Positions 3,260-64,000 of a stretch of DNA of 64,000 nucleotides are shown one piece after another. This DNA comes from an uncultured Gemmatimonadaceae bacterium (lineage in GTDB: Bacteria; Gemmatimonadota; Gemmatimonadetes; Gemmatimonadales; Gemmatimonadaceae). Each line of letters begins with the position of its first letter. Position 1 is the stretch's first letter. The stretch covers positions 64,001-128,000 of the forward strand of contig CAWHHI010000010.1 of the NCBI GenBank assembly GCA_963829055.1. Direction: 5' to 3'. Both the position numbers and the translations under genes were made by a program. A model generated the notes under the pieces. The model had not been told where the DNA came from, searched no databases, and saw only the letters and a list, made by a program, of their open reading frames with translations.

Positions 3260-5934
3260 TCAGTTCACGCCTAACCAGTAGCTCACCTTCACCACGAAGA
3301 AGTTGTCGCCCGGCACCTGCGTCGAGTTCCAGACATCGCGCGGGTTGATGAGCTGTCCGGTCGGTGTCCGATCCTGACGACTCTGCTGCCAGATCAGGTA
3401 ACGCCGTGCTGCCGGGCAGCCACTCCCATCGCAGCACGAGATTCGAGCGGAACGACAGCCGATTGAAGTCGAGCGCCGGAATCGTGAATGACGCCGCGCC
3501 ATCGCGTCACCGTGCTCACGCCGGCGGTGTCCTTCGTGATCGTCGTTCCCGTTCCCGGCGCACCATACGTTCGCAGCGTGCGGCTCCGCGGCGCCGGCAG
3601 CTCGCCGAAGTCGTAGAACCGTCCACTCGCCGCGAACGGCTCCGCGTAGGCCTCGACCGTGAAGTTCGGCGTGAACGCGTAGTTGAGCGCGGAACCGCGC
3701 CGACAGCGTACTGCGTTCGATGAACGCGAACACGTAGCGCCCGCCGAACGTCGCCGCGCTGCCGTCGCGCGCGCGTCATGACGTACTGGCGCCCATCCAC
3801 GGAGCGCGAGTACGTCGGATCCACGGACGCCTGCCACTGCGAGCGCGGGGCGAATCGCGATGCCCGTGCTCGCGTCCCAGCGCCAGCCGCCGAACTCGTC
3901 GTCGAAGTACTCGGTGCGCGCGTTCCACGTCGTCGGCACGTTCGGCCGGCTCGTCAGCTGCGCGGTGAGCGTGTACGCGTTCGGCGTGCCCATGAGCGGG
4001 CCGCCGCGCGTGAGGTCGTCGCTCAGCGAACGCCGGTGCAGGACGCCGCGGCCCGTGATGCGCCAGAAGTTGTGCAGCGTGAACTGGCACGTTCTCGTTG
4101 AACCGCAGGTACTGCTGGATGCCGCCGTAGTTCCAGCCGGCCTGCGTCGACGTCCCGAACTGGATAGAAGCGGACGTACTTGTTCGGCTTCGTGTCGCGG
4201 AGCTGGATGTCGGCGTTGAAGTCGATGTCGTCGCCGCTCCGCATCTGCCCGGCGTCGTTGATGTCGAACTCCGGCGACCGCGTCGACAGCTGAATGCCGC
4301 CGAGCGTGAAGCGGCCTGCGTTCTTGTCCAGCCGCAGCGACGCCGTGCCGCCGCTCAGCGACGTACGCGTCGGATCGAACGAGATGTGGTCCTGATCCGG
4401 TCGCTGGAAGTAGTGCGCACTCGCACGCTGCAAGCGCGCGATCGCGACGGAATCGCCACTCACGTGACTCCCGCCGACCCAGCCCGTGACCTCGTACATC
4501 CCTTCCATGTATCGAAGGCGCCAGTCTACGCCGCCGGTCACTGCGCTGCGTCGGCAACAGCTGCTCCAGGCCACCCCGATCGTCGAGCCAGCGTCTGACG
4601 TGCGTCAGCGACGCGCCGACGTTCGACTGGCGACTGCCGAATTCCTGCTGCAGGCGCAGCACGCCGTACGACGACGGCGGTTCGACCGCAATCCGGTCGG
4701 TGACGCCGGTCGTCGTATCGAACGTGCTTGCGTACTCGCGCGGCGTGATTGCGGCGAGTGCACCAACGGAGAGTCCCGAGGCCAGTCGACCCGTCACCTT
4801 CGCGGCCGAGATGATCGTCGTGTTCGTCGGCGCGTCCACGAAATCGCCTGACGCGAAGCCACGCGGCGACGCCCCGATGCGCCGACTGTAGAACCAGCTC
4901 GGCCGTCCGATGAAGCTCTGGCCTCGGCCCGTGAGCAGTTCGTTCCCCTCGATGAAGAATGGGCGCCGCTCCTCGAAGATCGTCTCGAACGCGGTCAGGT
5001 TCACGACGGCCGGATCGGCCTCCACCTGGCCGAAGTCCGGGTTGATCGTCGCGTCCAACGTCAGGTTCGGGCCGAGTCCGTACTTGAGATCGCCGCCGGC
5101 GCGAGCGCCGACTTTGTCGTCGAACGGGTTTTGCGGGTTGACGTTCGCGCGGTACGTGAGATCGCCGGCCACGTACGGCAGGAGCTCGAGTCGACGCGCG
5201 GGCGGAATGCCGGCAATGCCCTCGAGACGTCCGAAGTGCGACGAGAAGCCCGCGGCGGCAACGGGGATGAGCACCCACTGCAGCCGCTCGCTCTTGTCCG
5301 GGATGTTGCGCGTGAGCTCGAGTCCCCACGTCTGCTCCGCGCTCGCGTTGAAGCGAAGCTGCGAGAAGGGGATGTGCATCTCCGCCGTCCACCCCTGCTC
5401 GTCGACACGCGCCCGCGCCGTCCAGATCGGATCGTACTGCGCTTCGCGGCCCGAGTCCTCGCTGTCCTGCGAGTGGTAGGCGTCGCCGCGCACGCCGCCT
5501 GACGAGATCGAGAAGCTGTACGCCGTTCGTCGGTCGAGATACGGGTCGAGCGAGACCGTGAACACCTCGGCGTCGCTGTCGCCGTCACGCCGCGTGATGG
5601 ACGTGCGGATCGCGTTAGGATCTGGCCGTGAGAGGCGCGCGCCGACGTAGAGGCCGTGGTCGTCGTACAGCAACCGGACTTCCGTGGCGACGCTCGGCTC
5701 CGCGCCTTCGACCGGAATCTTCTGCACGAACGCGGTGATCGCCGGCGCCTGCGTCCAGGCCGGGTCGTCGAGGACACCGTCGATGCGGGGTGGAGAACCG
5801 ACGATGCGCACGGCGTTCGCCGTCCTGGTCGGAGCAGCCGGCTGAATCTGGGCCGCAAGCGAAGCGGTCGTTGCGGCGCTGAGCAGGAGCGTCGTCGCAA
5901 TGGTCCAGCGAATCGATGTCATGAAGCGTGGCAC
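3260..5934 (-). CDS. CBM9-like/DUF5916 domain outer-membrane or secreted protein (several frameshifts)
   Basis: Signal peptide; PRIDGVLDDPAW; TINPDFGQVEADP...FEERRPFFIEG...FYSRRIG; C-terminus FFVVKVSYWLGVN in ORF 3260-3733. Split over ORFs 3394-5934, 4023-4574 and 3260-3733. Confidence 0.85.
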
Positions 5935-6585
5935 CTAACGCGGTACGCGTATGGGGGTCCAGAGCTGTGGGCTCCGTTCGACCCGTTGCGCGGGGGTTCC
6001 GGACGCGGGCTCAGGCCAGCTCCACCAACCGTTCGGTCCATCGTTGTACGTGCGGAAGGCGATGCGAGGTGGCGCGGTGGTCGACGCGCCGAAGGCAGCG
6101 TCGCGAATGCGAAGCTCCACGGTCCAGCTGGAGGACGACGAGCTCGACGCGACGTCCCAGTCCTCGCCGCGACGGACGGGGCCGAGCATCGGCGGTTCCT
6201 GGCCTGGCGTGTTCCACCGACCCGATACGGCCGTGGAGACGATGCTGCTGTCGAGCGTGCGGCGAAGGTACCACTGACGGTCGCCAGGCTGCGGCGACGC
6301 GTCGGCGCTGCCGTTCGCGTCGAGGCTGACGACGAAGTCGTCGCCCCAGTAGAACGTGGAATCGGGGAGCGCGGCGGCGATGTAGACGAAGCCGTCGTGG
6401 CGCGCGAGCCAGACGCGGGCAACACCAGCGGCCGTCGTTATGCGGATCGGCTGGTCGCCATACTCCCGCTCGGCGACACGGCCATCCATGACGGGCGCCG
6501 CGCGCAGCGTCGCGGCATCGATCGTGTCCGCCGGTGCGTGCGTCGTGAGACCGCTCAGCGCGGCCAATGAAACGAGAAAATTCAT
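5935..6585 (-). CDS. Secreted hypothetical protein, CBM9/DOMON-like fold possible
   Basis: MNFLVSLAAL signal; PVMDG..EY and WTVELRI motifs; stop codon abuts next gene. Confidence 0.6.
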   Translation of the reverse strand: MNFLVSLAALSGLTTHAPADTIDAATLRAAPVMDGRVAEREYGDQPIRITTAAGVARVWLARHDGFVYIAAALPDSTFYWGDDFVVSLDANGSADASPQPGDRQWYLRRTLDSSIVSTAVSGRWNTPGQEPPMLGPVRRGEDWDVASSSSSSSWTVELRIRDAAFGASTTAPPRIAFRTYNDGPNGWWSWPEPASGTPAQRVERSPQLWTPIRVPR

Positions 6586-6860
6586 GATGGATGAATGCGG
6601 GTCGGGCCTGCGAGCGACTACGAGCATCTGTTACTCAGCGCGAATCTGCCGATTCCCCGGTGTCCGGGTCCATGACGCAGAGAAGATAGCGCGTGAATCC
6701 CGGCGGCTCGCCGTCCAGTGGGGTTTCGGAGGGGAGTCCACCCGGTACGACTCGCGCCTCATCATTGGCCCAGCACCGGGTTGGCGGGTGGATGCCGCAG
6801 GATCAAATTCACCGAGGAGCGTGTCGTGCGACCAGAGCGGTATGCCGCATTGGTCGTGAA

Positions 6861-7892
6861 TCAGCGGGTCCGCGACGCTGTGAGCCGATCGAGGAGGGCC
6901 TGTCGCTCCGCACCGTCGATGAACCGTCCGCCGAGCGTGATGGCGTCGATGCGGGCGGTGTTGCGGATATCGAGGAGCGGGTCGGCGTCGAGGATGAGCA
7001 GGTCTGCCAGCTTGCCGACCACGACGCTGCCGATTCGCTTGTCCCACCCCATGGTGCGGGCGGCGTCGAACGTCGCGGCTCGCAACGCTTCCACCGGCGT
7101 TAGGCCCGCCGCCACGAGCAGGCGCATTTCGTCGTGCATAGCGGCGCCGCTGGGCCGCGGGCCATCTGTGCCCGCAATGACGATGCCGCCCGCGTCGTGA
7201 AAGCGTCGCACGAATCGCATTGCGCCATCGCTGCTTCCCGTCACGAGCGTCGGCGCGAGCCAGACGTGGCGCTCGACCATCAGGCGCACGAGCGAGTCGC
7301 TAAAGAGCGAGTCGCTGACCAGCGAGTCGCGGAACGCGGTGTCCTGCGCGCCCTCGCTCCCGCGTAACGGCCGAATAGCGCCGGCCGACGCGATATACCA
7401 ACGATCGACGTTCGTGGAAACACGCAGGCGCGGCAGAGGTGCTTCGCGGTCGCGGGTGTCGCGTAACGCGGCGACGGCAACGTCGATCGCATGGGAGCTC
7501 ACCTCCTGCAGCGTCGTGACCCCGAACGGCACGAACGGTTCGAGTGGGTGATTGGTGCTGCCGGACGTTGTCGCGCTGTCGCCACTCCTGGCGAGATGCG
7601 AGTGGGTGTCGATCAACCCTGGGATCACGAACTTCCCGCGACCTTCGACGGTTCCGTAGCCGTCGGGGACGCGCACCTGCGAGCTCAGCCCGATGGTGGC
7701 AATGCGATCGCCTTCGACGATGATCGTCTGGTCGCGGAGGCGCGTGCCGTGCTCGACATCGATGACGGTGACGTGCGTGATCCCGATGGGGCGCGGCGCG
7801 GCAGCCCGGCCGCGGATCTCAGCGGCGTTCGTCGAGACAGCGTAGGCCGTCACGCAGACCGTCACGGCGAGTAGCGCGATCGCGGGTCGCAT
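6861..7892 (-). CDS. Secreted amidohydrolase family protein, internally shortened
   Basis: GKFVIPGLIDTHSH, IAGTD, GKLADLLILDADPL; GGAG RBS before ATG 7892. Confidence 0.85.
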   Translation of the reverse strand: MRPAIALLAVTVCVTAYAVSTNAAEIRGRAAAPRPIGITHVTVIDVEHGTRLRDQTIIVEGDRIATIGLSSQVRVPDGYGTVEGRGKFVIPGLIDTHSHLARSGDSATTSGSTNHPLEPFVPFGVTTLQEVSSHAIDVAVAALRDTRDREAPLPRLRVSTNVDRWYIASAGAIRPLRGSEGAQDTAFRDSLVSDSLFSDSLVRLMVERHVWLAPTLVTGSSDGAMRFVRRFHDAGGIVIAGTDGPRPSGAAMHDEMRLLVAAGLTPVEALRAATFDAARTMGWDKRIGSVVVGKLADLLILDADPLLDIRNTARIDAITLGGRFIDGAERQALLDRLTASRTR

Positions 7893-8106: not shown

Positions 8107-9401
8107 ATGTCGAGCAGCGTCCTGCAGCAACCTGCGTCCGTCGCGATTCCGTCGACGCCCTTCGCGCTCGGCGCCGACCGGGCGGCTCGACGTCCTCGAC
8201 GTGCTGCGCGGCATCGCGCTGCTCGGGATGTACGTCGTCCATTTCAACGACTACGCCACGAGCGCGCTCGAAGGATCTCCCGCTGCCGCGTCGGCACCGG
8301 TGCGCGTGCTGGAATCGACTCATCTCGCTGTTCTTCGATGGCCGGTTCTACACGATGTTCGGAATGCTGTTCGGCATCGGATTCGCGCTGCAGCTGCGGC
8401 GTGCGGACGCTCGCGGCGAGCGCTTCACCGCGCGATTCGTTAGGCGCCTGGCCGCGCTCGCGGTCTTCGGCGCGATCGCCGAGGGGGTGTTCGGCTACAA
8501 CGTCCTGTTCGGCTACGCGCTCTGGGGATTGCCGCTGTTGCTGATCCGGCGGTGGCCGATTCGCGCGCTGGTGGTGCTCGCCGTTCTCTGCGCGGCGTCG
8601 CGGCCGATCTACAACGTCGGGCGGTTCGCGATTGTCGGGCGGGACCGGTTCGTCGCAGAAACCCAGGCGAAGGCAACGGCGTTCAGAGCTGCGTCTGCTC
8701 GCCGCGACACCGAGACGGAATCGCGCGACTTCAGGACCGTGGTCGCGGCGCGAGCTCGGTTCATGCCGATCTTCCACCGACAGTGGAGCGTGTTGCCCTG
8801 GGGAAGCTTCACGCTCTTCGTCGTAGGGCTGATCTGGTTCCGACTCGGTCTGTTCGACCAACCCGAGCAGCATCGCCGGCTGATCGTCGCGCTGATGGTC
8901 GCCGGGGCTGCGTCGTGGGCGATCGAAGACTGGGGCCTCCCCTTCGGCGCGCCTATCCCGCAACCGCTCCCGAAAGACATCTCCACGCTCGGCTTCCTGA
9001 CGGCGATCGCCCGTACGAATGGGCTCATGCTCTTCCGCGACGCGTGGCTCGCGTTCACGTACATCGGAGCAGTACTGCTACTGGTCGCCCACGATCGTTC
9101 GTGGCTGCGTCGACTCGCCCCGTTAGGCTGGGCCGGTCGGATGGCGCTGACCAACTACATGACGCAGGTCATCGTGCTGGACGTGCTGTTCTCGAAGTAC
9201 GGCTTCGGCCTTACGGTCACGCCATTCGTCGGGCCGCTGTGTGCGGTGACGCTGTTCGCCGCGCACGCGCTGTTCAGCCGCTGGTGGCTCACTCGCTACC
9301 GACTCGGCCCACTCGAGTGGGTGTGGCGGTCGGTCACCTACTGGAAGCTGCAGCCACAGCGTATCGCGGCCCCTGTTGCCGGTGCAGTGGCGACCGCCTG
9401 A
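8107..9401 (+). CDS. DUF418 (YeiB-like) membrane protein (frameshifts near 8170 and 8320)
   Basis: RLDVLDVLRGIALLG; GRFYTMFGMLFGIGF; GRMALTNYMTQ; GPLEWVWRSVTY. Confidence 0.9.
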
Positions 9402-9489: not shown

Positions 9490-9928
9490 CAACTGCAACT
9501 GCAAGACAGGATGGCCAGGATGGCCAGGATTGGCAGGATGACGACTCTGCATTCACGCGCGCTCGCGCAACGGGCCGAGCCTGACGGAACAGCCGCTCGG
9601 GAAGCTACTCTCCCTGGGCTCTGGCCCCACAAAACGTTAGGCGGAGGAGGCGAGCGGCTAAACCCACGACGGGGCATCGGGCACGGGCTGCTGACGACAA
9701 CGGCAACTGCACGACAGGATTGACAGGATTTGCAGGATTGGACGCCTCTGCATTTACGCTTGCTGGCGCGAACGAGCCGAGGTGAGGGGAACCGCTGCTC
9801 GGGACGCCACTCTCCCCGAAGATGTGTTCCTTCATTCGTTAGGCCGCGCCGAGTCGCCGCTCGACGTCGAGGCGGTCATCGTGTCAATCCTGCAAATCCT
9901 GGCCATCCTGTCTTGCTGTTGTAGTTGC
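9490..9928. repeat. MITE-like composite element with CAGGAT-microrepeat inverted ends and internal ~150-bp duplication
   Basis: Left arm CAACTGCAACTGCAAGACAGGATGGCCAGGAT is inverted at 9887-9927; diverged direct repeats at about 9490-9645 and 9698-9848. Confidence 0.75.
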
Positions 9929-10484: not shown

Positions 10485-11836
10485 CTAGGTGACGACGATC
10501 GTGCCCTGCATCTTCGGATGCAGCGAGCAGAAGTAGTGATACGTGCCGGCCTTCGCGAGCGTGACGCTGAACCGCTGACCGGTATCGAGCAGCGGTGACG
10601 CCTTGAAGCGCTGCTCCGTGTTCACGATGAGGTGCGGCACATCGTCGTCGTTGACCCACGTGACCGGCGTGCCCGCCTTCACGGTCAGCGTCGGCGGCGT
10701 GAACTGGAAGTTGTCGATGCCGATCTCGTTAGGCGCGAGCACGGTGCGCTTCCGCTCGGCCCGCGCCTGACTCGCCGCGTCGGCGAACGCCGGCGGCTCG
10801 CCGGACAGCGTCGCGTCGACGACGGCGAGCGTGCTGCGCCCGGGAATGAACGTCACGTCCGCGATACCAAGCACGCTCTTCAGCGTCTCCGGCTCGACCT
10901 TCATCGGACCCGGGGCCGGCGCGGTGCCAGGCGTCGGCTGCGGAAAGGCCGTGGACATCGCGGTGTGAAACGAGACGCTGCCTTCGACCTTCTGCATGAT
11001 CTGGTGAATGTGTCCGTTGAGCACGGTCACCGATCCGAAGCGCTTGACGAGCGCGAGCGCCGCCTCGGAGTCGTCCGTGCCCCAGCCCCACTCGGGGTAG
11101 ACCGTCCACAGCGGCACGTGCGCGAACAGCACGATCGGCGTGCTCGCGGGCAACCGTGACACGTCCTTCTCGAGCCACGCGATCTGCTCGGCGCCGAGCG
11201 ACCCGAGTCCGCCGGCCTTGAGGTCGAGCACGTTGACGAGGCCGACGAAGTGCACGCCCTGTGATCGAAGCTGTACCAGCCGCCGCCCTTCGTGCCCTTG
11301 CCGTAGCGCGCGAGGTACGAGACGCCGTTGTCGGTCGCGACGTCGTGCTCGCCCGGGACGTAGAGGACGCGGTCGGTCTTCACCTCCTTCAGGACTTCGT
11401 TGGCCGTGTCGAACTCCGCGGGCTTGGCGAGCTGCGTGATGTCGCCGGTGTGCAGGACGAACGCCGGGGGTTGTGGCAGCGCGTTGAGCTTCGCGACCGC
11501 CTCGCGCAGCGTCGCCGCGACATCCGGGTTCGCTTCCTTGTTGAAGCCGATGTGGCTGTCGCTGATCTGGGCGAAGAAGATGCTCTTCTGCTCGGTCTCG
11601 GTGAGAAACGGGATGCGGCTCATCGCGAAGGACTTTGGGACGCCGCCACTCATGGCCCAGACGGTGGCCGTTCCCGCCCACGCCATGCAGCGCAGGAAGC
11701 CTCGCCGATCGACGCCGTCGTCGCTCAGGTCCGTCTCGATATAGTTGTCGCCGTTGGGACGCGTGTTGGTCTCGTCGTCGAACCGCGCGTCGTCGCGGTC
11801 GTGGTGCGTGTCGTGTGTATCGTGTTCGTCGCTCAC
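10485..11836 (-). CDS. Tat-exported calcineurin-like metallophosphoesterase fused to C-terminal cupredoxin (frameshift ~11262)
   Basis: DRRGFL Tat motif; QISDSH, HTGD, PGEHD, AHVP, NGHIH; cupredoxin ligands VPH...YFCSLHPKM. Confidence 0.85.
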
Positions 11837-55784: not shown

Positions 55785-57772
55785 CCGAGCTCCGACGGAA
55801 TGGCGTTAGGCGGCGACGGATGTGGTCGCGCGGGCGTTGCGCTGCGACGCAGCGTGACAGTGAAGGTCGCTCCCCCGTCGGGATTCTCGTGGGCACTGAT
55901 GGTCCCGCCATGAGCCTCGACGATCGTCCGCGCGATCGTTAGGCCTACGCCGAGGCCATTCGTCTTCGTCGTAACGAATGGTGTGAACAGCTTGCCCATG
56001 ATTTCAGCCGGCAAACCCGTTCCGGTGTCACACACGGAGACCTCGACGTCGGCGGCCCTGACCACGCTTCGTAACGTGATCTGACGCCGTGCCGGCCGAC
56101 TCTCAGGCAGCGCGTCCATCGCGTTCCTCAGCAGGTTGACGAGCACCTGCTGCAAGAGCACCTGATCGCCGTCGATGACGCAAGGCGTGGAAGAGAGATC
56201 GAGGGTCGCCTCGATCCGCCGCGCTCGCATGTCGTGGGCGACGAGGGCGAGGCTTTCATACATCACGGAGTGCAGGTCGATCGGCTTCCTCTGCAGCTCA
56301 TGGCTGCGGAGCATTGTCCGATGGCGATCAATGACCTGTGTGGCGAGGACGGCTTCGGCCTGGATATCGGCCAGGATCTCCCCTGTCGTGTCGGGCGTCG
56401 CCCGGTTGGCTGTGACCATCATCTGAAGCGCCTGCGTGTTGTGCATGATCGCGCTGAGAGGTTGCCCGAGCTCATGTCCGATCGAGGTCGTCAGCGCCGA
56501 CATCGTCGCGCGGCGGTTGGTATCGGCGGCGAGAGCCAGGTTCCGCCGGCTGTCGATCTCGGCGCGATGCCGTGCGCGGCGCTCGTGCAGGAGCCGCACG
56601 ATGAGGAGCGCCTGGAGAATCAGCGCGCCGAGCACAGCGAGAACCGTGAGCTTGTATTCACCCCACAGGGTCGGGCCACGATACATGACGGTGCTTCCCG
56701 GCGGCAACCGACTCTCGGGAATACCCCACCGCTGTAACTCGCGCCAATCGAAGATCGGCTTCCCCGCCATTTGTGGCGGTAGTCTGATGGTTCCAGCTGG
56801 CTCGCCGGACAGGATTCGGCCGGCCACGTCGGCCGAGTTGCGAGCAATTTCGGGTACGGACATCAGTGACCCACCGACAATGCCATGTCCGAGATATGAG
56901 CTCATCGCTCCAAAGATCGGGGCATTCGCCTTCTCGTGAAGGGCGGCGAACACTTGCTCGTCCGGGTACGCCCCGCCCACCGCGTCCGTGCCGAAGGTGA
57001 GATAAACAATCGCCGAGTGGCGTGGAAGGTTCGCGGAGCGGCGCACTATGTCGGGAAGGGACAACTCGTTGGACCAGAGGAATGTCACGCGACCCTGAAA
57101 TCGCTTGAGCCCGGGCTCGAGCTCCGGCTGCCAGAACCTGCCGATCGGTCCGGCCCCGACAACCATTAAGACCTGTTTGGTCTCGGGTAGTACCCGCAGG
57201 ACTTCATCGATGATGTGAGGAAAATCGTTGCTGACCATGACCGCACTCTCGTTCTCGCCAAGAGGCGCCCCGCGGAGGTATCGCTGATCCACCGAGGCGA
57301 ACAGGAGCGGCGTCTCCGGGAAAAGCTCCTGCCGATGCTTGCGCGCGAACACAGCCGCAGGGCCGCCGGCAGTCACAATGAGGTCCGGGGACGTCCGACC
57401 GGCAAAAATCGATCGGATGTAGTCGACGAGGTCTTGGTCGGGCGCGCCGACAAATCCTGTGGGCCCCACGACCACCTGGATGACGTTCACGGGTTGCCCG
57501 ATGCGCTGGTCCAGGTCTACACGGAAACCGCCGGTGAAGTGATCGAGCGGCAGGGTCCCGCGGTCGAGCGATTGCAGTACCAGAACGTGTTTGACCGGGG
57601 GCTGCGCTTCGCTCGTCGCGGCGCCGATCGCCAGCAACCCCCCCAGCAACGCACACTGCAATCTGCTGCGAACGCGGCACTCCGGACGCGTTCGGCCTGC
57701 CAGGGCCCTGGCCCTGGTGTCCTGGGCTGTGACCAAATTTCGGGTGCGGGCTGAAATCGCTGAGTCGACCAT
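55781..57772 (-). CDS. Sensor histidine kinase with extracytoplasmic ABC-substrate-binding-like domain (start uncertain)
   Basis: FDWRELQRWGIPESRLPPG; TM helix; IGHELGQPL; NLLRNAMDA; PFVTTKTNGLGVGL. Confidence 0.88.
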   Translation of the reverse strand: MVDSAISARTRNLVTAQDTRARALAGRTRPECRVRSRLQCALLGGLLAIGAATSEAQPPVKHVLVLQSLDRGTLPLDHFTGGFRVDLDQRIGQPVNVIQVVVGPTGFVGAPDQDLVDYIRSIFAGRTSPDLIVTAGGPAAVFARKHRQELFPETPLLFASVDQRYLRGAPLGENESAVMVSNDFPHIIDEVLRVLPETKQVLMVVGAGPIGRFWQPELEPGLKRFQGRVTFLWSNELSLPDIVRRSANLPRHSAIVYLTFGTDAVGGAYPDEQVFAALHEKANAPIFGAMSSYLGHGIVGGSLMSVPEIARNSADVAGRILSGEPAGTIRLPPQMAGKPIFDWRELQRWGIPESRLPPGSTVMYRGPTLWGEYKLTVLAVLGALILQALLIVRLLHERRARHRAEIDSRRNLALAADTNRRATMSALTTSIGHELGQPLSAIMHNTQALQMMVTANRATPDTTGEILADIQAEAVLATQVIDRHRTMLRSHELQRKPIDLHSVMYESLALVAHDMRARRIEATLDLSSTPCVIDGDQVLLQQVLVNLLRNAMDALPESRPARRQITLRSVVRAADVEVSVCDTGTGLPAEIMGKLFTPFVTTKTNGLGVGLTIARTIVEAHGGTISAHENPDGGATFTVTLRRSATPARPHPSPPNAIPSELG

Positions 57773-57865: not shown

Positions 57866-59831
57866 GTGACCCATCCTTCGGCCGAGTTCCTCGACCTGCA
57901 GGCCGCCCTGGCCGGCGAGTATTCGCTCCAGCGCGAGCTCGGCCGCGGAGGCATGGGAGTGGTGTACCTCGCTCGCGACGTGCAGCTCGATCGCGACGTC
58001 GCCATCAAGGTCCTGCCCACGCACCTCGCCCGCGATCCGGAGGCGCGCGAGCGGTTCGTGCGAGAGGCCCGCATGGCCGCCGGCCTCTCGCACCCGCACA
58101 TCGTCCCGATCCATCGCGTGGGCGAGGTGCCCGCAGGGCATCCCGAGCGGAGCGAGGAACCTCGCTTCGTCTTCTTCGTCATGAGCTACGTGGAGGGCGA
58201 GACGCTCGGCGAGCGACTCCGCACGCGCGGCCCGCTTCCGCCCGCCGAGGCGACGCGCGTGATGCGCGAGGTCGCCTGGGCACTCGCCTACGCGCACGGA
58301 CGCGGCATCGTCCACCGCGACGTGAAGCCGGACAACATCCTGCTCGAGGCGGGCACTGGCCGCGCGCTGGTGACGGATTTCGGCATCGCCGCATGGCGGT
58401 GGCAGACCCGGTCACCGCGACCGACCCGGGAAAGATCATGGGGACCGCGCACTTCATGAGCCCGGAGCAGGCCGCGGGCGAAGCCGTCGATGGCCGCAGC
58501 GACATCTACGCGCTCGGCGTCGTCGGCTATCTCGCGGTGAGCGGCCGCCTGCCGTTCGAGTCGTCCAACCTGCCGGCGCTGCTCGTGCGCCAGGCCACCG
58601 AGCCGGCCGCCGAGCGTGATGCGCGCGGCGCCCGGGCTGCCTCCCGCGCTCGGCGCCGCGATCGACCGGTGCCTAACGCGCGATCCTGCCGGCCGATTCG
58701 CCGACGGCGAAGCGCTGGCCGAAGCGCTCGCGCCAGCGCCTGACGCGCGGCCCGCACTGCCGCCCGACGCTGCGCGCGTGGCTCGCGGCGCGAAATCCGC
58801 TTCTCGCTCCCGTATCTGGCCTGGTCCGGCGGGTTCAGCCTTCTCACGCTGGCGAACCTCGTTGCGTGGGTGACCGGCAACCGGCCCGACGGGCCGGCGG
58901 ACATCGTACTCCTGGCCGCGATCACGGCGTTGCCGCTGCTGCCGATCGTCGGTTTCCATCTGAACCAGGCGCACAGGCAATTCCGGGCCGGGCACACGCT
59001 CGCCGACCTGCGGGCGGCGCTCGCCGTCGCGCGTCGCGAGCGCGCGGAGACCGAAGCCATCACGCGAGAGGAAACCGAGACCCCGTACTCATCGCGTCCT
59101 GCGGCTCGCTCACGATCGCCTCGACGACGTGGCTTGGCATCACCGTCGGGCTGGTGATCTCAGGGGCGATCCACGAGAATCGGACGGCACCGAGTCGTGT
59201 TCATCGCGCCGCTGCTCACGACGATGTTTCTGGGAGCGGTGAGCAACGCGCTCGACGTGCAGTTCATTCCGGACAAGATCCGCGACTGGTGGCAGACGGG
59301 GATTCGTGAGCGCCTCTGGAACAGCCGCGCGGGTGAGTGGCTCGCGCGCCGGCTCGGCGCGCCCGAGCGCACGCAGTTGGCCGGCGCGTCGGCGTTTCGC
59401 GCAACGGAGGCGGCGTTAGGCGTGGCGGCGTCGGAGCTGTTCGCGGCGCTGCCGAAGGAGTACCGCGAGCAGTTGTCGGAGCTGCCGGCGATCGTCGCGT
59501 CGCTCGAGGCGCGCGCAGCCGAGGCGCGCGCCGAGATGGACGTGGTTGCCGCCCTGGCTCCGTCAGGGTCGGCGAACGCCGACGCACTGGCTGCGCGAAA
59601 GAACGCGGCGGCCACGCACCTCGCGGAGAGCGTCGCCGCGCTGGAGGGACTGCGTCTCGACCTGCTGCGCCTGCACGCGGGCGCCGCCGATCTCGCGCCG
59701 CTCACCACGCTGATGGATGCCGCGCGACTGGTTGGCGAGGACCTGAGCCGGTTGGCGGAGGCGCAGCGGGAGGCGGAGCACGCCGCGAGCGGCACCCTCT
59801 CGCCCCGGCGACTCCCGCCATCCACGCCTAA
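57866..59831 (+). CDS. Ser/Thr protein kinase with membrane-embedded C-terminal region (several frameshifts; 3' end approximate)
   Basis: ELGRGGMGVV, VAIKV, HRDVKPDN, DFG, FMSPE; TM segments and coiled C-terminus across ORFs 58393, 58616, 58870, 59197. Confidence 0.85.
58136..58165 (+). repeat. Half REP-like element inserted in frame in the kinase domain
   Basis: GGGCATCCCGAGCGGAGCGAGGAACCTCGC matches the left arm of the intergenic repeats; encodes GHPERSEEPR. Confidence 0.7.
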
Positions 59832-59879
59832 CGAGTCGTCCGACGCGTTAGGATCCCGTATTGCGGCACCCGCCGCGAA

Positions 59880-60409
59880 TCAGCGCCGTCCCGAGTCGGC
59901 GGGGGGACGCACCGGCGGCGCGGTGCGTGGATCAATCGACTCGTCCTCGAGCCGAATTCGGAGCGATCCGTCCTGCCGCTTGAGAAGCGCGGTATACGAG
60001 AGAATGATCGGGCGCTCTCGGATCTGCTCGTCCACGCGCCCAGGCCGGCCACGAGGACGGCATCCGACCCGACCGGCTCGAACGAGAGGTCGCGCCACTC
60101 GAAGGCGGCAGGCGGAGTCCAACGGGCGTCGCGATACTGCGCGACAACCGAATCATACGGCATGAATTCCTTTGAGCCGTTCCCGAGGCGATATGCTCCG
60201 GTCCGATCGTACCGCGCGCCGATCGCCGCACGATCACCGGCAAGCAAATCACGGGCGTACGTGTCCATGAACGCACGCGCCTCGTCGGTAATGGCGGCTC
60301 CCGGCGCCGGCGAGTCGCCCTGCCTAACGTTGCCGGCTTGCGAGCCATCGCACGCAACGATCCATGCCAGTGCGGCAACGCACAGTCCGACGCTGAATGC
60401 CGGCTTCAT
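59880..60409 (-). CDS. Lipoprotein with NTF2/DUF4440-like domain (frameshift ~60030)
   Basis: Lipobox IVAC; FMDTYARDLLAGDR; YTALLKRQDGSLRIRLEDES. Confidence 0.7.
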
Positions 60410-61277: not shown

Positions 61278-63356
61278 ATGGTTTCTCTCCTGACGCGCCG
61301 AATGGCATGCGTCGTCGCGCTGCTCGCCACGGCCGCCACGGCCGACGCGCAGAGCAAGCGCCCCATGACCATCATGGACATCATGGACCTGAAGAACGTG
61401 GGCGGCGTTTCGCTCTCGCCCGACGGGTCGAAGGTCGCCTACGCCGTCAGCACCTGGGAGCACCCCAGCGCGCGTTCGTCCGCGGATTCCACGAAGCCGG
61501 ATACCGCGAAGGGCGACAAGCACGAGATGCGGTCGCACATCTGGATGGTTCCCGCCGGCGGCGGCACGCCGCGGCAGCTCACGTTCAGCGAGCGTGGCGA
61601 GAACGGCCCGCAGTGGTCACCCGACGGCCGCTCGCTCGCCTTCGTCTCGTCGCGCGGCAGCGGCACGGACGCGAAGACGCAGATCTGGATCCTGCCGATG
61701 GACGGCGGCGAAGCGTACCAGCTGACGACGTCGAAGGAGAACGTGACGGGCTTCGAGTGGTCGAAGGACGGGTCGCGTATCGCGTTCCTGGCGGTGGACA
61801 CGCTGCCGAAGACCGACGAGGCGAAGACGGCGCGGCGCGACGATCCGCAGGTGTTCGAGGACAACTTCCGACTCTCGCACGCCTGGGTGATCGACGTCGC
61901 GACGAAGCGCGCCACCGAAGTCGCCCATGGCAATCTCACCGTGGCCGGTGCGCCGAGCTGGTCGCCGGATGGGACGCACCTCGCGTTCCAGGCTGCGCCG
62001 ACGACGATGATCCGCGATACCCGCTCGGACATCTACGTCGTCACGATCGCCGACAAGTCGATGAAGAAGATCACGGCGAAGCCCGAGGCGGGATCGGCGC
62101 CGGCGTGGTCGCCGGATGGAAAGACGATCGCGTTCACGTGCTTCCGCAGAGTCACACGGCTCGCGCCGACAGCATCATGGATCGCGAGATCGGCAACGAC
62201 CATCTCATTCTCTATGACGTCGCGTCCGGAAAAGCGAAGGACACGTACGACGCGAAGATGGACATCTCGGCCGGCACGCCGCGCTGGACGCCTGATGGCT
62301 CGCGCGTGCTGTTCACGACGGGCGAGCGCGCGTGGTCCGCGGTGTACGCGTACGACGTCGCGTCCAACAAGCTGAGTCGCGTCATCGACAAGGTGCTGAT
62401 CGGCAACCCGTCGATCTCGAAGGACGGAAAGCTGGCCGCGTACACGTTAGGCTCGCCGAACGCGCCGGGGGAGGTGTACGTGAGCGACCTGACGTTCGCG
62501 TCGCCGAAGAAGCTCACGGACATCAACCCGCAGCTCCGCGAGATAGCGTTAGGCGAGACGGAAGTGATCACGTGGAAGAGCACCGACGGCACGCCGGTGG
62601 AAGGCATCCTGCTCAAGCCCGTCGGCTATCAGGCCGGACGAAAGTACCCGTTGCTCGTCGAGGCGCACGGCGGCCCGACCGGCGCCACGAACGCGGGGTT
62701 CAAGGCGAACTGGGGATCGCCGGGACAGGTGTGGGCGGGACAGGGCTGGGCGGTGTTGTACCCGAACCCGCGCGGCTCGACCAACTACGGCGAGAAGTTC
62801 ACGCGCGCGAACATCATGGACTGGGGCGGCGGCGACTACCGCGACATCATGACCGGCGTCGATGACGTGATCAAGCGCGGCATCGCCGACTCGTCGAAGA
62901 TGGCGTTCGAGGGCTGGAGCTACGGCGGCTACATGACGGCGTGGGTCGTGAGCCAGACGAGCCGGTTCAAGGCGGCGCGCATGGGCGCCGGCCTGTCGGA
63001 CCTGCAGAGCATGTACGGGACGACGGACATCCCGGGCTACATCGGCACGTTCTTCAGCGGCGTCCCGACGCAGAAGACGCTCGACTTCTATCGCGCGCGC
63101 TCAGCGATCACGTTCGTGGACAACGTGACGACGCCGCTCCTGATTCAGCATGGCGGAAACGATCAGCGCGTGCCGGTCGGTCAGGCGATGGAGTACTACC
63201 GCGCGCTCAAGGATCGAGGGAAGACCGGTGCAGCTGGTGTTCTATCCGCGCGAGGGACACGGCCTCGCGGAGTACTACCACCAGGTCGACAAGATGCAGC
63301 GCGAGCTGGACTGGATGACGAAGTACACGTTAGGCTCGCAGAAGATTGTTCCGTGA
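61278..63356 (+). CDS. S9C acylaminoacyl peptidase-like protein (frameshifts ~62140, ~63225)
   Basis: Signal peptide; WSPDG repeats; HGGP; NPRGSTNYG; GWSYGG; HGGNDQRV; REGH. Confidence 0.93.
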
Positions 63357-63362
63357 CGCGAT

Positions 63363-63398
63363 GACGAGAGGGCGGTGCCTAGGCACCGCCCTCTCGTC
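63363..63398. terminator. Perfect 36-bp palindrome between convergent genes
   Basis: GACGAGAGGGCGGTGCCT|AGGCACCGCCCTCTCGTC. Confidence 0.65.
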
Positions 63399-63431
63399 TG
63401 ACGCTCCCTGCAGTAAAGGAATCCGGCCGGC

Positions 63432-64000
63432 CTAACGACTTGGAGCTCGGCCGCGCGCCGCTTTTGGCGCCTCCGCTGCGACGACGGGTTGGGCGGCGTC
63501 TGGCGGCAACGCCGATGGTGGCCGCGTCGATCGTGCATCCTCCTCGGCCAGAGGCAACGCGACATAGAAGGCGGCGCCGCGGTCGGCCCTGCGCTCCGCC
63601 CACAGCCGCCCGCCTTGCGAGGTTATCAGTGTGCGGCAGATCGAAAGGCCCATGCCCAGGCCGCCAGCCTTGGTGCTGTGGAACGGCTGAAACAACGTCT
63701 CAACGTCGTCCGGCAAGCCGACTCCGCAGTCCAGCACGCCGATGCGCACCTCGTCCTCCGTGATGAAAGCCTTGAGCGTGAGGGTGCGGTCTTCCCGTGG
63801 ATTCGATTCCATGGCATCGCACGCGTTCACGATCAGGTTGAGGAGGACCTGCTGGAGTTGCACGCGATTCGTCCTGGCTGCGGGAAGGTCGCTGGGCGCG
63901 AGCTTCGAGACGGAGACACCGCGGGCAATGAGATCGGTGCGGACGAGGCGGAGGAGTTCGTCGAGACTCTCACTCACGCTCACCGCCTGGAGCACGACCT
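63432..64000 (-). CDS. Histidine kinase, C-terminal HATPase part (5' end outside window)
   Basis: VQLQQVLLNLIVNACDAM, DCGVG, FQPFHSTKAGGLGMGLSICR. Confidence 0.9.
   Translation of the reverse strand, partial: VVLQAVSVSESLDELLRLVRTDLIARGVSVSKLAPSDLPAARTNRVQLQQVLLNLIVNACDAMESNPREDRTLTLKAFITEDEVRIGVLDCGVGLPDDVETLFQPFHSTKAGGLGMGLSICRTLITSQGGRLWAERRADRGAAFYVALPLAEEDARSTRPPSALPPDAAQPVVAAEAPKAARGRAPSR

What the first reader, a model, noticed from the sequence alone, without database searches (positions are those of the whole stretch)
3269..63436. Non-palindromic motif CGTTAGGC/GCCTAACG is iterated about once per kb and written into coding sequence
Seen: by eye I count about 70 GTTAGG/CCTAAC hexamers (about 43 and 27 on the + strand). 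About 59 extend to GTTAGGC and about 52 to CGTTAGGC. Examples: 7099, 8439, 9122, 10728, 15485, 16706, 19142, 19510, 19948, 20356, 20845, 27377, 28897, 33086, 37533, 40009, 43418, 47167, 55805, 59415, 62446, 62548, 63329. A zero-order estimate at 68% GC gives only 2-3 octamers, so enrichment is roughly 20-fold. Most copies lie in genes and use different frames: TTA-GGC (LG, 9122), GTT-AGG (VR, 8439), CCT-AAC (PN, 15485), CTA-ACG (LT, 7099). These need codons that are otherwise rare in this GC-rich DNA, so the constraint appears to act on DNA rather than protein. Established comparators: Neisseria DUS and Pasteurellaceae USS uptake sequences, Chi, KOPS, cyanobacterial HIP1. This motif matches none of them. 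It does equal the integron core consensus GTTRRRY/RYYYAAC. Inference: a genome-wide protein-recognition system, such as DNA uptake, recombination, nucleoid organisation or a modification-driven mutational bias. I know of no description of it. The weak strand bias argues against a KOPS-like role.
Basis: partly seen in the sequence, partly recalled or inferred. Interest (0 to 1): 0.92.

Follow-up and report, generated by a model that had tools for sequence, protein, structure and literature searches.

The report
Genome-wide CGTTAGGC word, two phyla
This soil bacterium has written one eight-letter DNA word about 5,000 times through its ordinary genes against its own codon habits, much as Neisseria and Haemophilus tag their DNA for uptake, and the same word also fills some unrelated soil bacteria and their phages and is the core site of integron gene cassettes.

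Summary
The genome holds 5,004 copies, 19 to 83 times the Markov expectation. Inside genes there are 3,413 copies against 164±13 after synonymous codon shuffling.

- **Orientation and spacing.** Both orientations are equal, with no replication skew. Copies avoid each other within about 300 bp whatever their orientation.
- **How copies arise.** In rpoB the word is made at invariant residues by CTC/CTG→TTA, only in word-rich genomes.
- **Conservation.** Copies are kept two to three times better than average 8-mers between congeners.
- **Distribution.** It is patchy: 31 of 301 Gemmatimonadales genomes and 9 of 121 genomes of a Verrucomicrobiota order hold 300 or more copies. Phages also carry the word.
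- **Integron link.** The word equals the attC R' core of the order's integron cassettes, but integrase presence does not track richness.

The best reading is an orientation-blind DNA tag of the uptake-sequence kind (confidence 0.4). The reader protein was not identified. I found no description in print.

The parts
7098..7105 (+). word copy; antisense in ORF 6861-7940(-), GGC-CTA-ACG (G-L-T)
8438..8445 (+). word copy; sense in ORF 8355-9401(+), TTC-GTT-AGG-CGC (V-R)
9121..9128 (+). word copy; sense in ORF 8355-9401(+), CCG-TTA-GGC (P-L-G)
9635..9642 (+). word copy; outside called ORFs
9837..9844 (+). word copy; outside called ORFs
10727..10734 (+). word copy; antisense in ORF 10485-11255(-), GCG-CCT-AAC-GAG (P-N)
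15485..15492 (-). word copy; antisense in ORF 15408-16811(+), ACG-CCT-AAC-GGC (P-N)
16705..16712 (+). word copy; sense in ORF 15408-16811(+), GCG-TTA-GGC (A-L-G)
17294..17301 (-). word copy; sense in ORF 16976-17470(-), GCG-TTA-GGC
17878..17885 (-). word copy; outside called ORFs
19141..19148 (+). word copy; antisense in protein-kinase ORF 18553-20979(-), CGC-CTA-ACG
19510..19517 (-). word copy; sense in ORF 18553-20979(-), TCG-TTA-GGC
19948..19955 (-). word copy; sense in ORF 18553-20979(-), GCG-TTA-GGC
20356..20363 (-). word copy; sense in ORF 18553-20979(-), GCG-TTA-GGC
20845..20852 (-). word copy; sense in ORF 18553-20979(-), GCG-TTA-GGC
21286..21293 (+). word copy; outside called ORFs
22260..22267 (-). 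word copy; outside called ORFs
27376..27383 (+). word copy; antisense in ORF 27241-27654(-), GGC-CTA-ACG
27763..27770 (+). word copy; outside called ORFs
28896..28903 (+). word copy; sense in S15 peptidase ORF 27982-29148(+), CCC-GTT-AGG-CTC
29143..29150 (+). word copy; sense in ORF 29060-29773(+), AGC-GTT-AGG-CCT
29668..29675 (-). word copy; antisense in ORF 29060-29773(+), GTG-CCT-AAC-GTT
30280..30287 (+). word copy; outside called ORFs
30912..30919 (-). word copy; sense in ORF 30438-31073(-), GCG-TTA-GGC
33085..33092 (+). word copy; antisense in ABC ATPase ORF 32341-33168(-), AGC-CTA-ACG
33659..33666 (+). word copy; antisense in ORF 33165-35075(-), TGG-CCT-AAC-GAC
34700..34707 (+). word copy; antisense in ORF 33165-35075(-), CGG-CCT-AAC-GTC
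37532..37539 (+). word copy; sense in MacB/FtsX ORF 36370-38820(+), GCG-TTA-GGC
39701..39708 (-). word copy; sense in ORF 38874-42158(-), ATC-GTT-AGG-CGC
40008..40015 (+). word copy; antisense in ORF 38874-42158(-), AGC-CTA-ACG; polymorphic in metagenome contigs (40011 T>G, 40015 C>T in run X3)
40550..40557 (+). word copy; antisense in ORF 38874-42158(-), GTG-CCT-AAC-GCG
41261..41268 (+). word copy; antisense in ORF 38874-42158(-), GCG-CCT-AAC-GAC; shared with G005 ortholog
42951..42958 (-). word copy; outside called ORFs
43417..43424 (+). word copy; outside called ORFs
44630..44637 (+). word copy; sense in S9 peptidase ORF 44488-45798(+), GCG-TTA-GGC
46059..46066 (-). word copy; sense in ORF 45808-49023(-), CTC-GTT-AGG-CCC
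46756..46763 (-). word copy; sense in ORF 45808-49023(-), GCG-TTA-GGC
47166..47173 (+). word copy; antisense in ORF 45808-49023(-), GCG-CCT-AAC-GCC
48255..48262 (+). word copy; antisense in ORF 45808-49023(-), GGG-CCT-AAC-GAG
51647..51654 (-). word copy; outside called ORFs
53246..53253 (-). word copy; outside called ORFs
54080..54087 (+). word copy; antisense at the start of ORF 53307-54089(-), ATG-CCT-AAC-GCC
55804..55811 (+). word copy; antisense in histidine-kinase ORF 55781-58315(-), CCG-CCT-AAC-GCC
55937..55944 (+). word copy; antisense in ORF 55781-58315(-), GGC-CTA-ACG
58671..58678 (-). word copy; antisense in ORF 58393-58743(+), GTG-CCT-AAC-GCG
59414..59421 (+). word copy; sense in ORF 59197-60165(+), GCG-TTA-GGC
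59826..59833 (-). word copy; antisense in ORF 59197-60165(+), ACG-CCT-AAC-GAG
60322..60329 (-). word copy; outside called ORFs
62445..62452 (+). word copy; sense in S9 peptidase ORF 62105-63364(+), ACG-TTA-GGC
62547..62554 (+). word copy; sense in ORF 62105-63364(+), GCG-TTA-GGC
63328..63335 (+). word copy; sense in ORF 62105-63364(+), CAC-GTT-AGG-CTC
63430..63437 (-). word copy; outside called ORFs

Best explanation
CGTTAGGC is a DNA-level tag. A still unidentified factor reads it on double-stranded DNA in either orientation. A directional process that favours DNA segments holding at least one copy keeps it at roughly one copy per 1.5 kb.

The most likely process is that of the uptake sequences of Pasteurellaceae (USS) and Neisseriaceae (DUS). 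Competent cells would take up, or keep and recombine, fragments that bear the word. Alleles with the word would then replace alleles without it, and the word would spread through genes wherever the protein tolerates it.

Shown here:
- the excess of the word and its DNA-level nature;
- orientation blindness;
- mutual exclusion of copies at short range;
- conservation above background, together with turnover and parallel gains;
- spread to phages;
- a patchy distribution across two phyla.

For: 1. Excess beyond protein and codon needs. There are 3,413 copies in ORFs against 164±13 after synonymous shuffling. The word accounts for 45% of all TTA codons (1,340 of 2,981). It occupies 57% of X-P-N-[ADEGV] sites and 22% of [APST]-L-G sites.

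2. rpoB codon alignment (29 relatives plus G000). The word sits at invariant residues such as L-A-L-G-A-N as GCG-TTA-GGC in all 4 word-rich genomes, where all 25 others use CTC, CTG, CTA, CTT or TTG. At other columns it appears in scattered subsets, including genomes of another family (G036, G040). This points to repeated parallel gains. One D→N replacement creates a copy in G014.

3. Orientation blindness. Totals are 2,547 against 2,457. Adjacent copies share orientation 2,589 times and differ 2,395 times. Where GC skew is positive the split is 976/919, and where negative 1,387/1,382. In ORFs, 1,820 copies are sense and 1,590 antisense.

4. Spacing more even than chance.
- 215 neighbour gaps under 200 bp, against 611 expected.
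- Against a null that picks at random among the potential synonymous sites, pairs closer than 100/200/300 bp number 28/95/212. The null gives 174±11, 323±16 and 471±19, and no simulation of 200 came as low.
- The exclusion is as strong between opposite orientations as between the same orientation: 0.09-0.28 of expectation below 50 bp, about 1 beyond 400 bp. One copy in either orientation therefore makes a second one nearby redundant.

5. Kept above background. In 138 kb aligned with congener G005 (mean 83.7% identity), 67 sites are shared and 34 plus 34 are private. The chance that a copy is kept, against the chance that a random 8-mer window is identical, is:

| identity band | copy kept | random window identical |
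|---|---|---|
| 78-85% | 0.60 | 0.26 |
| 85-90% | 0.77 | 0.38 |
| 90-95% | 0.75 | 0.51 |

6. Graded specificity. One-letter variants are enriched only at positions 1, 8, 6 and 4: TGTTAGGC 435 against 25, CGTTAGGT 827 against 40, CGTTAGGG 428 against 31, CGTTATGC 583 against 62. Positions 2 and 7 are strict. In the Verrucomicrobiota loci the word carries a T before it in 91% of copies, which looks like a dialect.

7. Phages carry it inside their genes. Four viral records hold 29-43 copies each, 22-24 of them in ORFs against 1.2-1.7 after shuffling. Two encode integrases. Temperate Pasteurellaceae phages likewise accumulate USS (PMC6776037, passages read).

8. The parts needed for transformation are present in G000: ComEC, DprA, a ComEA-type HHH domain and type IV pilus PilM.

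9. DNA that looks foreign to the genome lacks the word.
Against: - No reader was found. The ComP_DUS family gave no hit, but that search also rang in none of the 14 control genomes, so it says nothing. One pilin-like gene tested has close orthologs only in the genus and about 40%-identical relatives in rich and poor genomes alike.
- The competence and pilus genes are in nearly all relatives whether rich or poor: ComEC 40 of 41, PilM 37 of 41, ComEA-type 41 of 41. They do not explain the patchiness. One genus has 4 rich species and 1 poor one, G155 with 66 copies.
- Known uptake words are private to one family. This one is shared by two phyla and is identical to the integron attC core. The uptake model does not predict that.
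- There is no excess of close inverted pairs of the kind DUS and USS form as terminators.
- One near-complete phage record (G317, 98% by CheckV) carries 29 copies, and none of its 49 scanned ORFs matched an integrase. If it is virulent, a process inside the cell fits better than uptake.
- Natural transformation of these bacteria is not known to me (recalled, not searched).
- In the G005 sample, aligned and unaligned DNA hold the word at similar density: 101 in 138 kb against 188 in 244 kb. USS are denser in core genes.
Confidence: 0.4

Rival explanations
1. The word is an intracellular tag. A cytoplasmic protein would read it on any resident DNA. That protein could be a nucleoid-organising protein, or a defence or surveillance machine that spares DNA carrying the word. 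Chromosome and phages alike would then be selected to carry one copy every kilobase or so.
For: - Even, orientation-blind spacing fits a site that must be met within a given distance.
- Phage genomes carry the word at host-like or higher density, 0.63-1.83 per kb, including a near-complete phage with no integrase found.
- Density is higher outside called ORFs (0.97 per kb) than inside (0.56 per kb).
- The patchy distribution within genera fits a gene system that is gained and lost.
Against: - No candidate protein was found.
- The only large methylase-helicase gene found is present in 39 of 41 relatives, rich or poor.
- Temperate phages of USS hosts also accumulate USS (PMC6776037), so the phage result does not separate this reading from uptake.
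- A structural site would be expected to be conserved in a whole clade, not to vary from 66 to 4,141 copies inside one genus.
Confidence: 0.2
2. The reader belongs to the integron world. An integron integrase, or a protein that shares its core-site specificity, would recognise the word. Alternatively, the uptake or retention machinery may have been tuned to the cassette core. In either case the genomic copies and the attC ends are read by the same factor.
For: - In word-poor relatives the word sits at the R' end of attC sites in same-strand cassette arrays. There are 38 copies in three arrays, 31 of them with a recognisable R'' box 70-130 nt upstream. One array lies next to an integrase gene.
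- The identity is 8 of 8. By simple counting, the chance for an arbitrary 8-mer is about 1 in 30,000.
- The same word arose or spread in two phyla (all 33 hits of a three-copy pattern among 185,579 species genomes; whole-genome counts).
- Integron integrases are common in the order (24 of 41 over the family cut-off).
Against: - Integrase presence does not follow richness. Poor G007, G008, G009, G011 and G016 have full genes. In rich G002 and G004 only Xer-level matches were found. In rich G014 the gene is in three frames.
- G000's borderline integrase gene (265.7 bits, cut-off 265) has no attC beside it: 12 of 12 nearby copies lack an R'' box.
- An attC model from relatives finds nothing in G000.
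- At most a handful of 5,004 copies look attC-like.
- Random orientation of thousands of active recombination sites would invite inversions and deletions.
- The tolerated variants (T at position 6, G at position 8) do not follow GTTRRRY.
Confidence: 0.12
3. The word is written by a biased mutation or repair process. This would be a sequence-specific mismatch correction of the very-short-patch kind, or a methylation-linked bias as proposed for HIP1. It would turn near-cognate sites into the word in all DNA replicating in the cell.
For: - It would act on chromosome and phages alike.
- Density is higher in non-coding DNA.
- Some private copies differ from the ortholog at 4-5 of 8 bases amid conserved flanks: 13% of private sites against 5% of all differing windows.
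Against: - In the 7.78 Mb (86% complete) no Vsr, no C5 methylase, no N4/N6 methylase (PF01555) and no N6_Mtase (PF02384) were found. The only finds were a D12-class gene split over two frames and the family-wide Eco57I-type gene.
- The C→T neighbours TGTTAGGC and CGTTAGGT are enriched 17- to 21-fold, not depleted as a very-short-patch system predicts.
- A site-by-site bias does not predict that copies avoid each other within 300 bp.
Confidence: 0.12
4. The word is a polar signal for an enzyme that tracks along DNA: a Chi-like stop for RecBCD/AddAB, or a KOPS-like guide for FtsK.
For: - It is a short non-palindromic word, like Chi and KOPS.
- Phage records show strand bias (21/8, 21/8, 9/22) and long same-strand runs.
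- One phage encodes a Mu Gam-like end-protection protein.
Against: - There is no strand bias against GC skew in 145 windows of 50 kb (Spearman 0.16, p 0.06; totals near 50:50). A contig with a clear skew switch shows only 59% against 47%.
- Opposite-orientation copies exclude each other as strongly as same-orientation ones. That should not happen if each orientation serves a different direction of travel.
- The phage bias is not consistent relative to transcription (sense to antisense 17:8, 19:6, 18:12, 9:17).
- Presence of RecBCD/AddAB was not tested.
Confidence: 0.04
5. The word is a by-product of amino-acid, codon or dinucleotide usage, or of assembly.
For: None found.
Against: - Dinucleotide shuffles, Markov models, and synonymous-codon shuffles and resampling.
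- Independent assemblies and runs.
Confidence: 0.01

Closest known systems
DNA uptake sequences: USS of Pasteurellaceae and DUS of Neisseriaceae
   Same: - A short non-palindromic word at roughly one copy per kb, with both orientations equal.
- Written into genes in the frames the proteins tolerate.
- More evenly spaced than chance.
- One-letter variants enriched at the less critical positions.
- Variants between clades.
- Present in phages of the hosts (PMC6776037 passages; titles and abstracts of PMC2817400, PMC3458573 and PMC3630211 seen in listing).
   Different: - Only 8 specified bases, with no flanking motif in G000.
- No terminator-like inverted pairs.
- The same word in two phyla.
- Identity with the integron core.
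- Very patchy, even within genera, although competence genes are universal in the order.
- Uptake bias and a receptor have not been shown.
Integron recombination core site
   Same: Letter-for-letter identity with the R' end of attC sites in relatives' cassette arrays, including the C before GTTAGGC.
   Different: - The genomic copies lack the rest of an attC (R'', L'', L').
- They lie inside ordinary genes, in both orientations.
- They do not depend on an integrase gene being present.
HIP1 (GCGATCGC) of cyanobacteria
   Same: A hyper-abundant octamer written through genes against codon habits, with function unsettled (recalled).
   Different: HIP1 is a palindrome linked to cognate methylases (recalled). 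This word is not a palindrome, and the major DNA methylase families were not found in G000.
Chi and KOPS
   Same: A short asymmetric word over-represented in the chromosome.
   Different: Those are skewed with the direction of replication (recalled). This word is not, and its two orientations are interchangeable.

Membership tests
DNA uptake sequences (USS/DUS) | Hundreds to thousands of copies of one short word, far above chance, on both strands equally | tested here: met
   5,004 copies against 60-257 expected; 2,547/2,457 by strand
DNA uptake sequences (USS/DUS) | Competent cells take up DNA with the word in preference to DNA without it | not testable with these tools
   Needs uptake or transformation assays
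DNA uptake sequences (USS/DUS) | A receptor that binds the word (ComP minor pilin for DUS) | tested here: inconclusive
   PF16732 gave no hit in G000 but rang in none of 14 control genomes. One of five pilin-like ORFs was tested and shows no link to richness.
DNA uptake sequences (USS/DUS) | Transformation machinery present (type IV pilus, ComEA, ComEC, DprA) | tested here: met
   It is also present in word-poor relatives, so this is necessary but not telling.
DNA uptake sequences (USS/DUS) | More even spacing than chance | tested here: met
DNA uptake sequences (USS/DUS) | Accumulates in temperate phages of the hosts | tested here: met
   comparison with PMC6776037
DNA uptake sequences (USS/DUS) | Close inverted pairs acting as terminators between genes (DUS, some USS; recalled) | tested here: not met
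   Only 3 convergent and 4 divergent pairs within 8-50 bp, about a tenth of expectation
Integron attC site | R' core GTTRRRY | tested here: met
   The word contains GTTAGGC and is identical to the attC R' of relatives
Integron attC site | Imperfect inverted repeat R''-L''...L'-R' of about 60-130 nt, arrayed on one strand next to an integrase gene | tested here: not met
   0 nhmmer hits in G000 with a model of 31 attC sites. 86 loose candidates, only a handful hairpin-like. No R'' near the 12 copies around the integrase-like gene.
Chi / KOPS | Orientation skewed with the direction of replication | tested here: not met
Chi / KOPS | Read by RecBCD/AddAB or FtsK | not tested
   No search for these genes was made in G000 proper. 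An FtsK gene was seen only in the probably foreign end of contig C6 and, at 47% identity, on C16.
HIP1-type palindromic word | Palindromic word with cognate methylases | tested here: not met
   The word is not a palindrome. PF00145, PF01555 and PF02384 were not found.
Very-short-patch-repair-driven word (Dcm/Vsr type) | C5 methylase with Vsr endonuclease, and depletion of the deamination neighbour | tested here: not met
   No Vsr and no C5 methylase found. C→T neighbours are enriched 17- to 21-fold. The genome is 86% complete, so absence is not proven.

The most novel reading that the evidence does not exclude
The word is a cross-phylum currency tag borrowed from integrons. Some soil Gemmatimonadaceae and Chthoniobacterales would have a DNA-entry or DNA-retention system whose specificity is the cassette core site CGTTAGGC. 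They would then preferentially acquire gene cassettes, each of which carries one copy, as well as each other's DNA. By molecular drive the same word has since flooded their own chromosomes and their phages. This would tie natural transformation to cassette traffic, and would explain both the 8-of-8 identity and the recurrence of one word in two phyla.
Probability: 0.12. Interest if true: 0.95.

Novelty: new variant of a known kind. Interest (0 to 1): 0.8.

Why it matters
Genome-wide self-tags are known from very few bacterial families, and their readers were hard to find. This case has several features that make it useful:

- It is strong and clean, and it lies in two abundant but little-studied soil phyla.
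- The same word appears in both phyla and in their phages.
- The word coincides with the universal integron core.

If the process is uptake, it would show sequence-selective gene exchange in soil and possibly a route for cassette traffic. If it is not uptake, it points to an unknown DNA-reading system.

There are practical uses too. The word marks host DNA against foreign or mis-binned DNA, and it links phages to hosts.

Tried and rejected
- **Maximal-order Markov ranking.** It hid the word because its sub-words are enriched too, so I replaced it with order-3 and masked models.
- **First gene caller.** It covered only 44% of the genome and was replaced (79%). Both are crude, and 'outside ORFs' includes missed genes and frameshifted ones.
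- **First small ortholog comparison (4 shared of 20).** It suggested no conservation. The larger sample overturned that.
- **Candidate readers that led nowhere:**
  - integron integrase;
  - ComEC, PilM and ComEA profiles;
  - the Eco57I-type methylase/SNF2 gene;
  - the D12 methylase, which is split over two frames;
  - Vsr and three methylase families, not found;
  - ComP_DUS, where the search was uninformative;
  - one pilin-like ORF.
- **tblastn of G000 proteins against 415 kb of Verrucomicrobiota loci.** It showed only ordinary conserved genes (at most 73% identity). The sample is far too small to find a shared reader.
- **Search for dialects in word-poor relatives (40-60 kb each).** G008, G016, G017 and G018 show no hyper-abundant word. 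G010 shows a weak CGTTTGGC. G021 shows a different, modest word.
- **Large repeats in G000.** They cover only 36.5 kb, too little to test whether mobile DNA lacks the word.
- **Polarity in phages.** Strand bias exists but is inconsistent relative to genes, so I draw no conclusion.
- **Read laying.** Only 40 of 1,158 differences were shown, so polymorphism at word sites could not be counted. One copy (40008-40015) is visibly polymorphic.
- **Literature.** No paper on this word or on uptake sequences in Gemmatimonadota turned up. In the octamer search only the first 20 of 478 papers holding the string were listed, and those were primers or unrelated work.

Full report
**1. The observation**

The octamer CGTTAGGC or its complement occurs 52 times in the window (32 on +, 20 on -). 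Dinucleotide-preserving shuffles give 0.95, with a maximum of 4 in 100. The heptamer occurs 59 times and the hexamer 70 times (43/27), against 6.3 expected. Window GC is 66.7%. The 18 hexamers that are not full octamers all differ only at octamer position 1 or 8.

By my own crude ORF calls, 39 of the 52 copies lie in ordinary genes: kinases, peptidases, ABC transporters and sigma factors. Four codon contexts are used: xCG-TTA-GGC (14), xxC-GTT-AGG-C (6), xGC-CTA-ACG (6) and xxG-CCT-AAC-G (13). The other two frames would put a stop codon in frame.

**2. The whole genome**

The window is C10:64001-128000 of a 7.78-Mb assembly in 20 contigs, 86% complete and 4% contaminated.

- The genome holds 5,004 copies (2,547/2,457), on every contig.
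- The word is the most over-represented 8-mer under an order-3 Markov model, 19-fold with 257 expected. It is 83-fold over a model trained after masking the word, with 60 expected.
- Nothing beyond the 8 bases is conserved. There is only a mild G preference on either side.

One-letter variants are enriched at positions 1, 8, 6 and 4 only. Positions 2 and 7 are strict:

| variant | observed | expected |
|---|---|---|
| TGTTAGGC | 435 | 25 |
| CGTTAGGT | 827 | 40 |
| CGTTAGGG | 428 | 31 |
| CGTTATGC | 583 | 62 |

**3. DNA, not protein**

- Called ORFs hold 3,413 copies. Shuffling synonymous codons within each gene leaves 164±13 (maximum 190 of 20 shuffles). Redrawing codons from word-free usage leaves 82±3.
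- The word accounts for 1,340 of the 2,981 TTA codons of the genome. TTA is 1.5% of leucine codons.
- 57% of all X-P-N-[ADEGV] sites and 22% of [APST]-L-G sites carry the word.

A codon alignment of rpoB shows how copies arise. It used 29 relatives plus G000's two frame-split pieces; the locus of unpublished G013 was left out.

- At invariant residues such as L-A-L-G-A-N, all four word-rich genomes read GCG-TTA-GGC, while all 25 others read CTC, CTG, CTA, CTT or TTG.
- At other columns the word appears in scattered subsets, including G036 and G040 of another family. This points to repeated parallel gains at the few permissive sites.
- In G014 a D→N replacement creates a copy.

**4. Orientation and spacing**

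Orientation is random along the genome:

- Neighbouring copies share orientation 2,589 times and differ 2,395 times.
- Across 145 windows of 50 kb, the strand bias of the word does not follow GC skew (Spearman 0.16, p 0.06). The totals are 976/919 where skew is positive and 1,387/1,382 where it is negative.
- Relative to genes, 1,820 copies are sense and 1,590 antisense.

Spacing is more even than chance:

- 215 neighbour gaps are shorter than 200 bp, against 611 expected. Gaps of 400-1,600 bp are in excess.
- A stricter null draws the same number of copies at random from the 15,472 sites where the proteins would allow the word synonymously. It gives 174±11, 323±16 and 471±19 pairs closer than 100, 200 and 300 bp. 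The observed numbers are 28, 95 and 212, lower than in any of 200 draws.
- The exclusion is at least as strong between copies of opposite orientation as between copies of the same orientation. It is 0.09-0.28 of expectation under 50 bp, about 0.4-0.5 at 100-200 bp, and 1 beyond about 400 bp.

So a copy in either orientation makes a second copy nearby redundant. This fits a reader of double-stranded DNA that ignores orientation. It does not fit a polar signal such as Chi or KOPS.

**5. Conservation and turnover**

A first look at a few orthologous pieces found 4 shared sites of 20. A larger sample changed that picture. I took 382 kb of congener G005, of which 138 kb aligned to G000 at a mean 83.7% identity. 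It gave 67 shared sites and 34 plus 34 private ones.

| identity band | copy kept | random 8-mer window identical |
|---|---|---|
| 78-85% | 0.60 | 0.26 |
| 85-90% | 0.77 | 0.38 |
| 90-95% | 0.75 | 0.51 |

Copies are therefore maintained, yet they turn over. Private copies differ from the ortholog at 4-5 of the 8 bases more often than differing windows in general (13% against 5%). One window copy (40008-40015) is visibly polymorphic in metagenome contigs.

**6. Who has it**

- All 7 genomes of the genus hold 2,501-5,112 copies. G014 of another genus holds 6,360 in 5.1 Mb.
- I sampled 301 genomes evenly from the order. Four unpublished genomes (G013, G094, G212, G266) count in that denominator, all as poor rows. 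Of the 301, 15 hold at least 1,000 copies and 16 hold 300-999. By family this is 24 of 141, 4 of 139 and 3 of 21. The rest mostly hold fewer than 100, which is about what composition predicts.
- Richness varies inside genera. One genus has four species with 3,244-4,141 copies and one with 66. Others range 173-858, 8-835 and 11-561.
- Word-poor relatives do not carry another hyper-abundant word in 40-60-kb samples. G010 shows a weak one-letter variant, and G021 shows a different, modest word.

A three-copy, mixed-orientation pattern scanned over one genome for each of 185,579 species hit 33 stretches, all from two groups. Seven lie in Gemmatimonadota MAGs and 26 in Chthoniobacterales or 'Verrucomicrobiae' MAGs, by their record titles.

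- The 415 kb of Verrucomicrobiota loci hold 538 copies (277/261; 1.3 per kb; GC 0.60), and 91% have a T before the word.
- Four whole genomes of that group hold 2,110-4,562 copies.
- In a sample of 121 genomes of that order, 4 hold at least 1,000 copies and 5 hold 300-999.

So the same core word is hyper-abundant, and patchy, in two phyla.

**7. Phages**

A two-copy pattern found 91 stretches in viral contigs, and 80 were fetched. Several GC-rich ones carry the word densely on both strands. Five records were counted whole:

| record | length | copies |
|---|---|---|
| G314 | 17 kb | 31 |
| G315 | 41 kb | 43 |
| G316 | 46 kb | 29 |
| G317 | 44 kb (98% complete by CheckV) | 29 |
| G318 | 31 kb | 10, all in the first 6.4 kb |

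- Four of these carry terminase, portal, head or tail genes. G318 was not annotated.
- Those four hold 22-24 copies inside ORFs, against 1.2-1.7 after synonymous shuffling, with a maximum of 4-7 in 200 shuffles.
- G315 and G316 encode integrases. None of the 49 ORFs scanned in G317 matched an integrase.

I first read this as evidence against uptake. However, temperate phages of Pasteurellaceae accumulate USS up to host-like levels, while large, probably lytic phages do not (PMC6776037, passages read). So the phage result parallels uptake sequences rather than excluding them. Only a clearly virulent word-rich phage would tell the two apart.

**8. The integron link**

In word-poor relatives the few copies cluster in same-strand runs spaced about 500-700 bp apart. 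Three such runs were read (G027:C95, G025:C3, G027:C80). They are cassette arrays with attC sites about 95 nt long.

- The R' end of these attC sites is exactly CGTTAGGC. There are 38 copies, and 31 of them have a recognisable R'' box upstream.
- One array abuts an integrase gene.

The 8-of-8 identity is unlikely to be chance. Yet the genomic copies are not attC sites:

- A profile of the 31 sites finds nothing in G000.
- A loose structural scan finds 86 candidates, of which only a handful look hairpin-like.
- The 12 copies around G000's borderline integrase gene (C20:208041-208958; 265.7 bits against a cut-off of 265) have no R'' box.
- Integrase presence does not follow richness.

The link is real but unexplained.

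**9. Looking for a reader**

- G000 has ComEC, DprA, a ComEA-type domain and PilM. So do nearly all relatives: 40 of 41, 41 of 41 and 37 of 41 for ComEC, the ComEA type and PilM.
- No Vsr, C5 methylase, PF01555 or PF02384 methylase was found. There is a D12-class gene in two frames. An Eco57I-type methylase fused to an SNF2 helicase is conserved in 39 of 41 relatives.
- One pilin-like ORF has close orthologs only in the genus.
- The ComP_DUS search was uninformative.
- RecBCD/AddAB were not searched.

**10. Reading**

The word is a DNA-level tag, read without regard to orientation, of which one copy per few hundred base pairs suffices. A directional process keeps it against codon preference, and that process also reaches phage DNA. 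This is the behaviour of uptake sequences, and I put that mechanism first at 0.4.

An intracellular reader (0.2), an integron-related reader (0.12) and a repair or mutational writer (0.12) remain open. Polar signals (0.04) and artefact (0.01) are disfavoured.

Three things set this case apart from USS and DUS:

- The same word occurs in two phyla.
- The word is identical to the cassette core.
- Richness differs sharply between close relatives.

**11. Novelty**

Full-text searches found nothing on this. I searched for the two strings (478 papers; the 20 listed were primers or unrelated), for uptake sequences with Gemmatimonad*, and for attC with Gemmatimonad*.

Earlier notes of this scan on other genomes describe the same word and the same leading comparison. 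They are not independent evidence. I re-derived here the attC identity, the phage finding and the Chthoniobacterales finding that they mention.

Noticed in passing
G000 contigs C6:5440-55037, C6:591808-623330, C11:1-46789, C2:33099-43593 (outside the window): These are long word-free stretches at contig ends, with GC up to 0.73. They carry housekeeping genes (FtsK, chorismate synthase, DAHP synthase, GreA, glutamine synthetase). Their second copies elsewhere in G000 are only 47-54% identical. They are probably chimeric joins or mis-binned DNA of another organism rather than islands.
   Followed up: partly
window 27982-29773 and 54112-55615; G000 C19:47991-52509 (rpoB); C8:73551-78317: Several genes are split over two or more frames: S15 peptidase, gamma-glutamyltranspeptidase, rpoB and the Eco57I/SNF2 gene. 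Relatives have single ORFs. This looks like indel errors of the assembly rather than pseudogenes.
   Followed up: no
G000 genome-wide: Other repeated words are present. TCGGAATGAC and its overlaps occur about 700 times, the 12-mer TGTCATTCCGAG 481 times and ACTGGGGACT 212 times. They are probably short dispersed repeat elements and were not examined.
   Followed up: no
L007 (G027:C95:1-20000), L008, L009: Word-poor relatives hold large chromosomal integron arrays. L007 has 23 word copies on one strand in 20 kb, most with full attC sites about 95 nt long. Similar same-strand runs are seen in G144, G106, G109, G099 and G083 but were not inspected.
   Followed up: partly
L106, L116, L122, L169 (viral contigs): These are low- or mid-GC viral contigs (GC 0.24-0.64) with 8-14 copies of the word nearly all on one strand. 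They look like cassette arrays or tandem units in unrelated organisms.
   Followed up: no
G021 sample L042-L044: A different modestly enriched word family (GGGAAGCG and its overlaps, about 30 copies in 60 kb against 7 expected) occurs in a word-poor relative. It could be that genome's own polar or signal word.
   Followed up: no
relatives, e.g. G008:C2:950016, G017:C13:89990: A gene of about 1,000-1,130 aa with an Eco57I-type adenine methylase domain is conserved in 39 of 41 genomes of the order. In G000 it is joined to an SNF2 helicase domain. Its function is unknown.
   Followed up: partly
L197:16713-19196 (viral record G316): A word-rich temperate phage encodes a Mu Gam-like end-protection protein next to a RecT-like annealing protein.
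   Followed up: no
G318 (L120/L147): In this 31-kb viral record all 10 copies of the word lie in the first 6.4 kb. This suggests a host flank or a mosaic.
   Followed up: no
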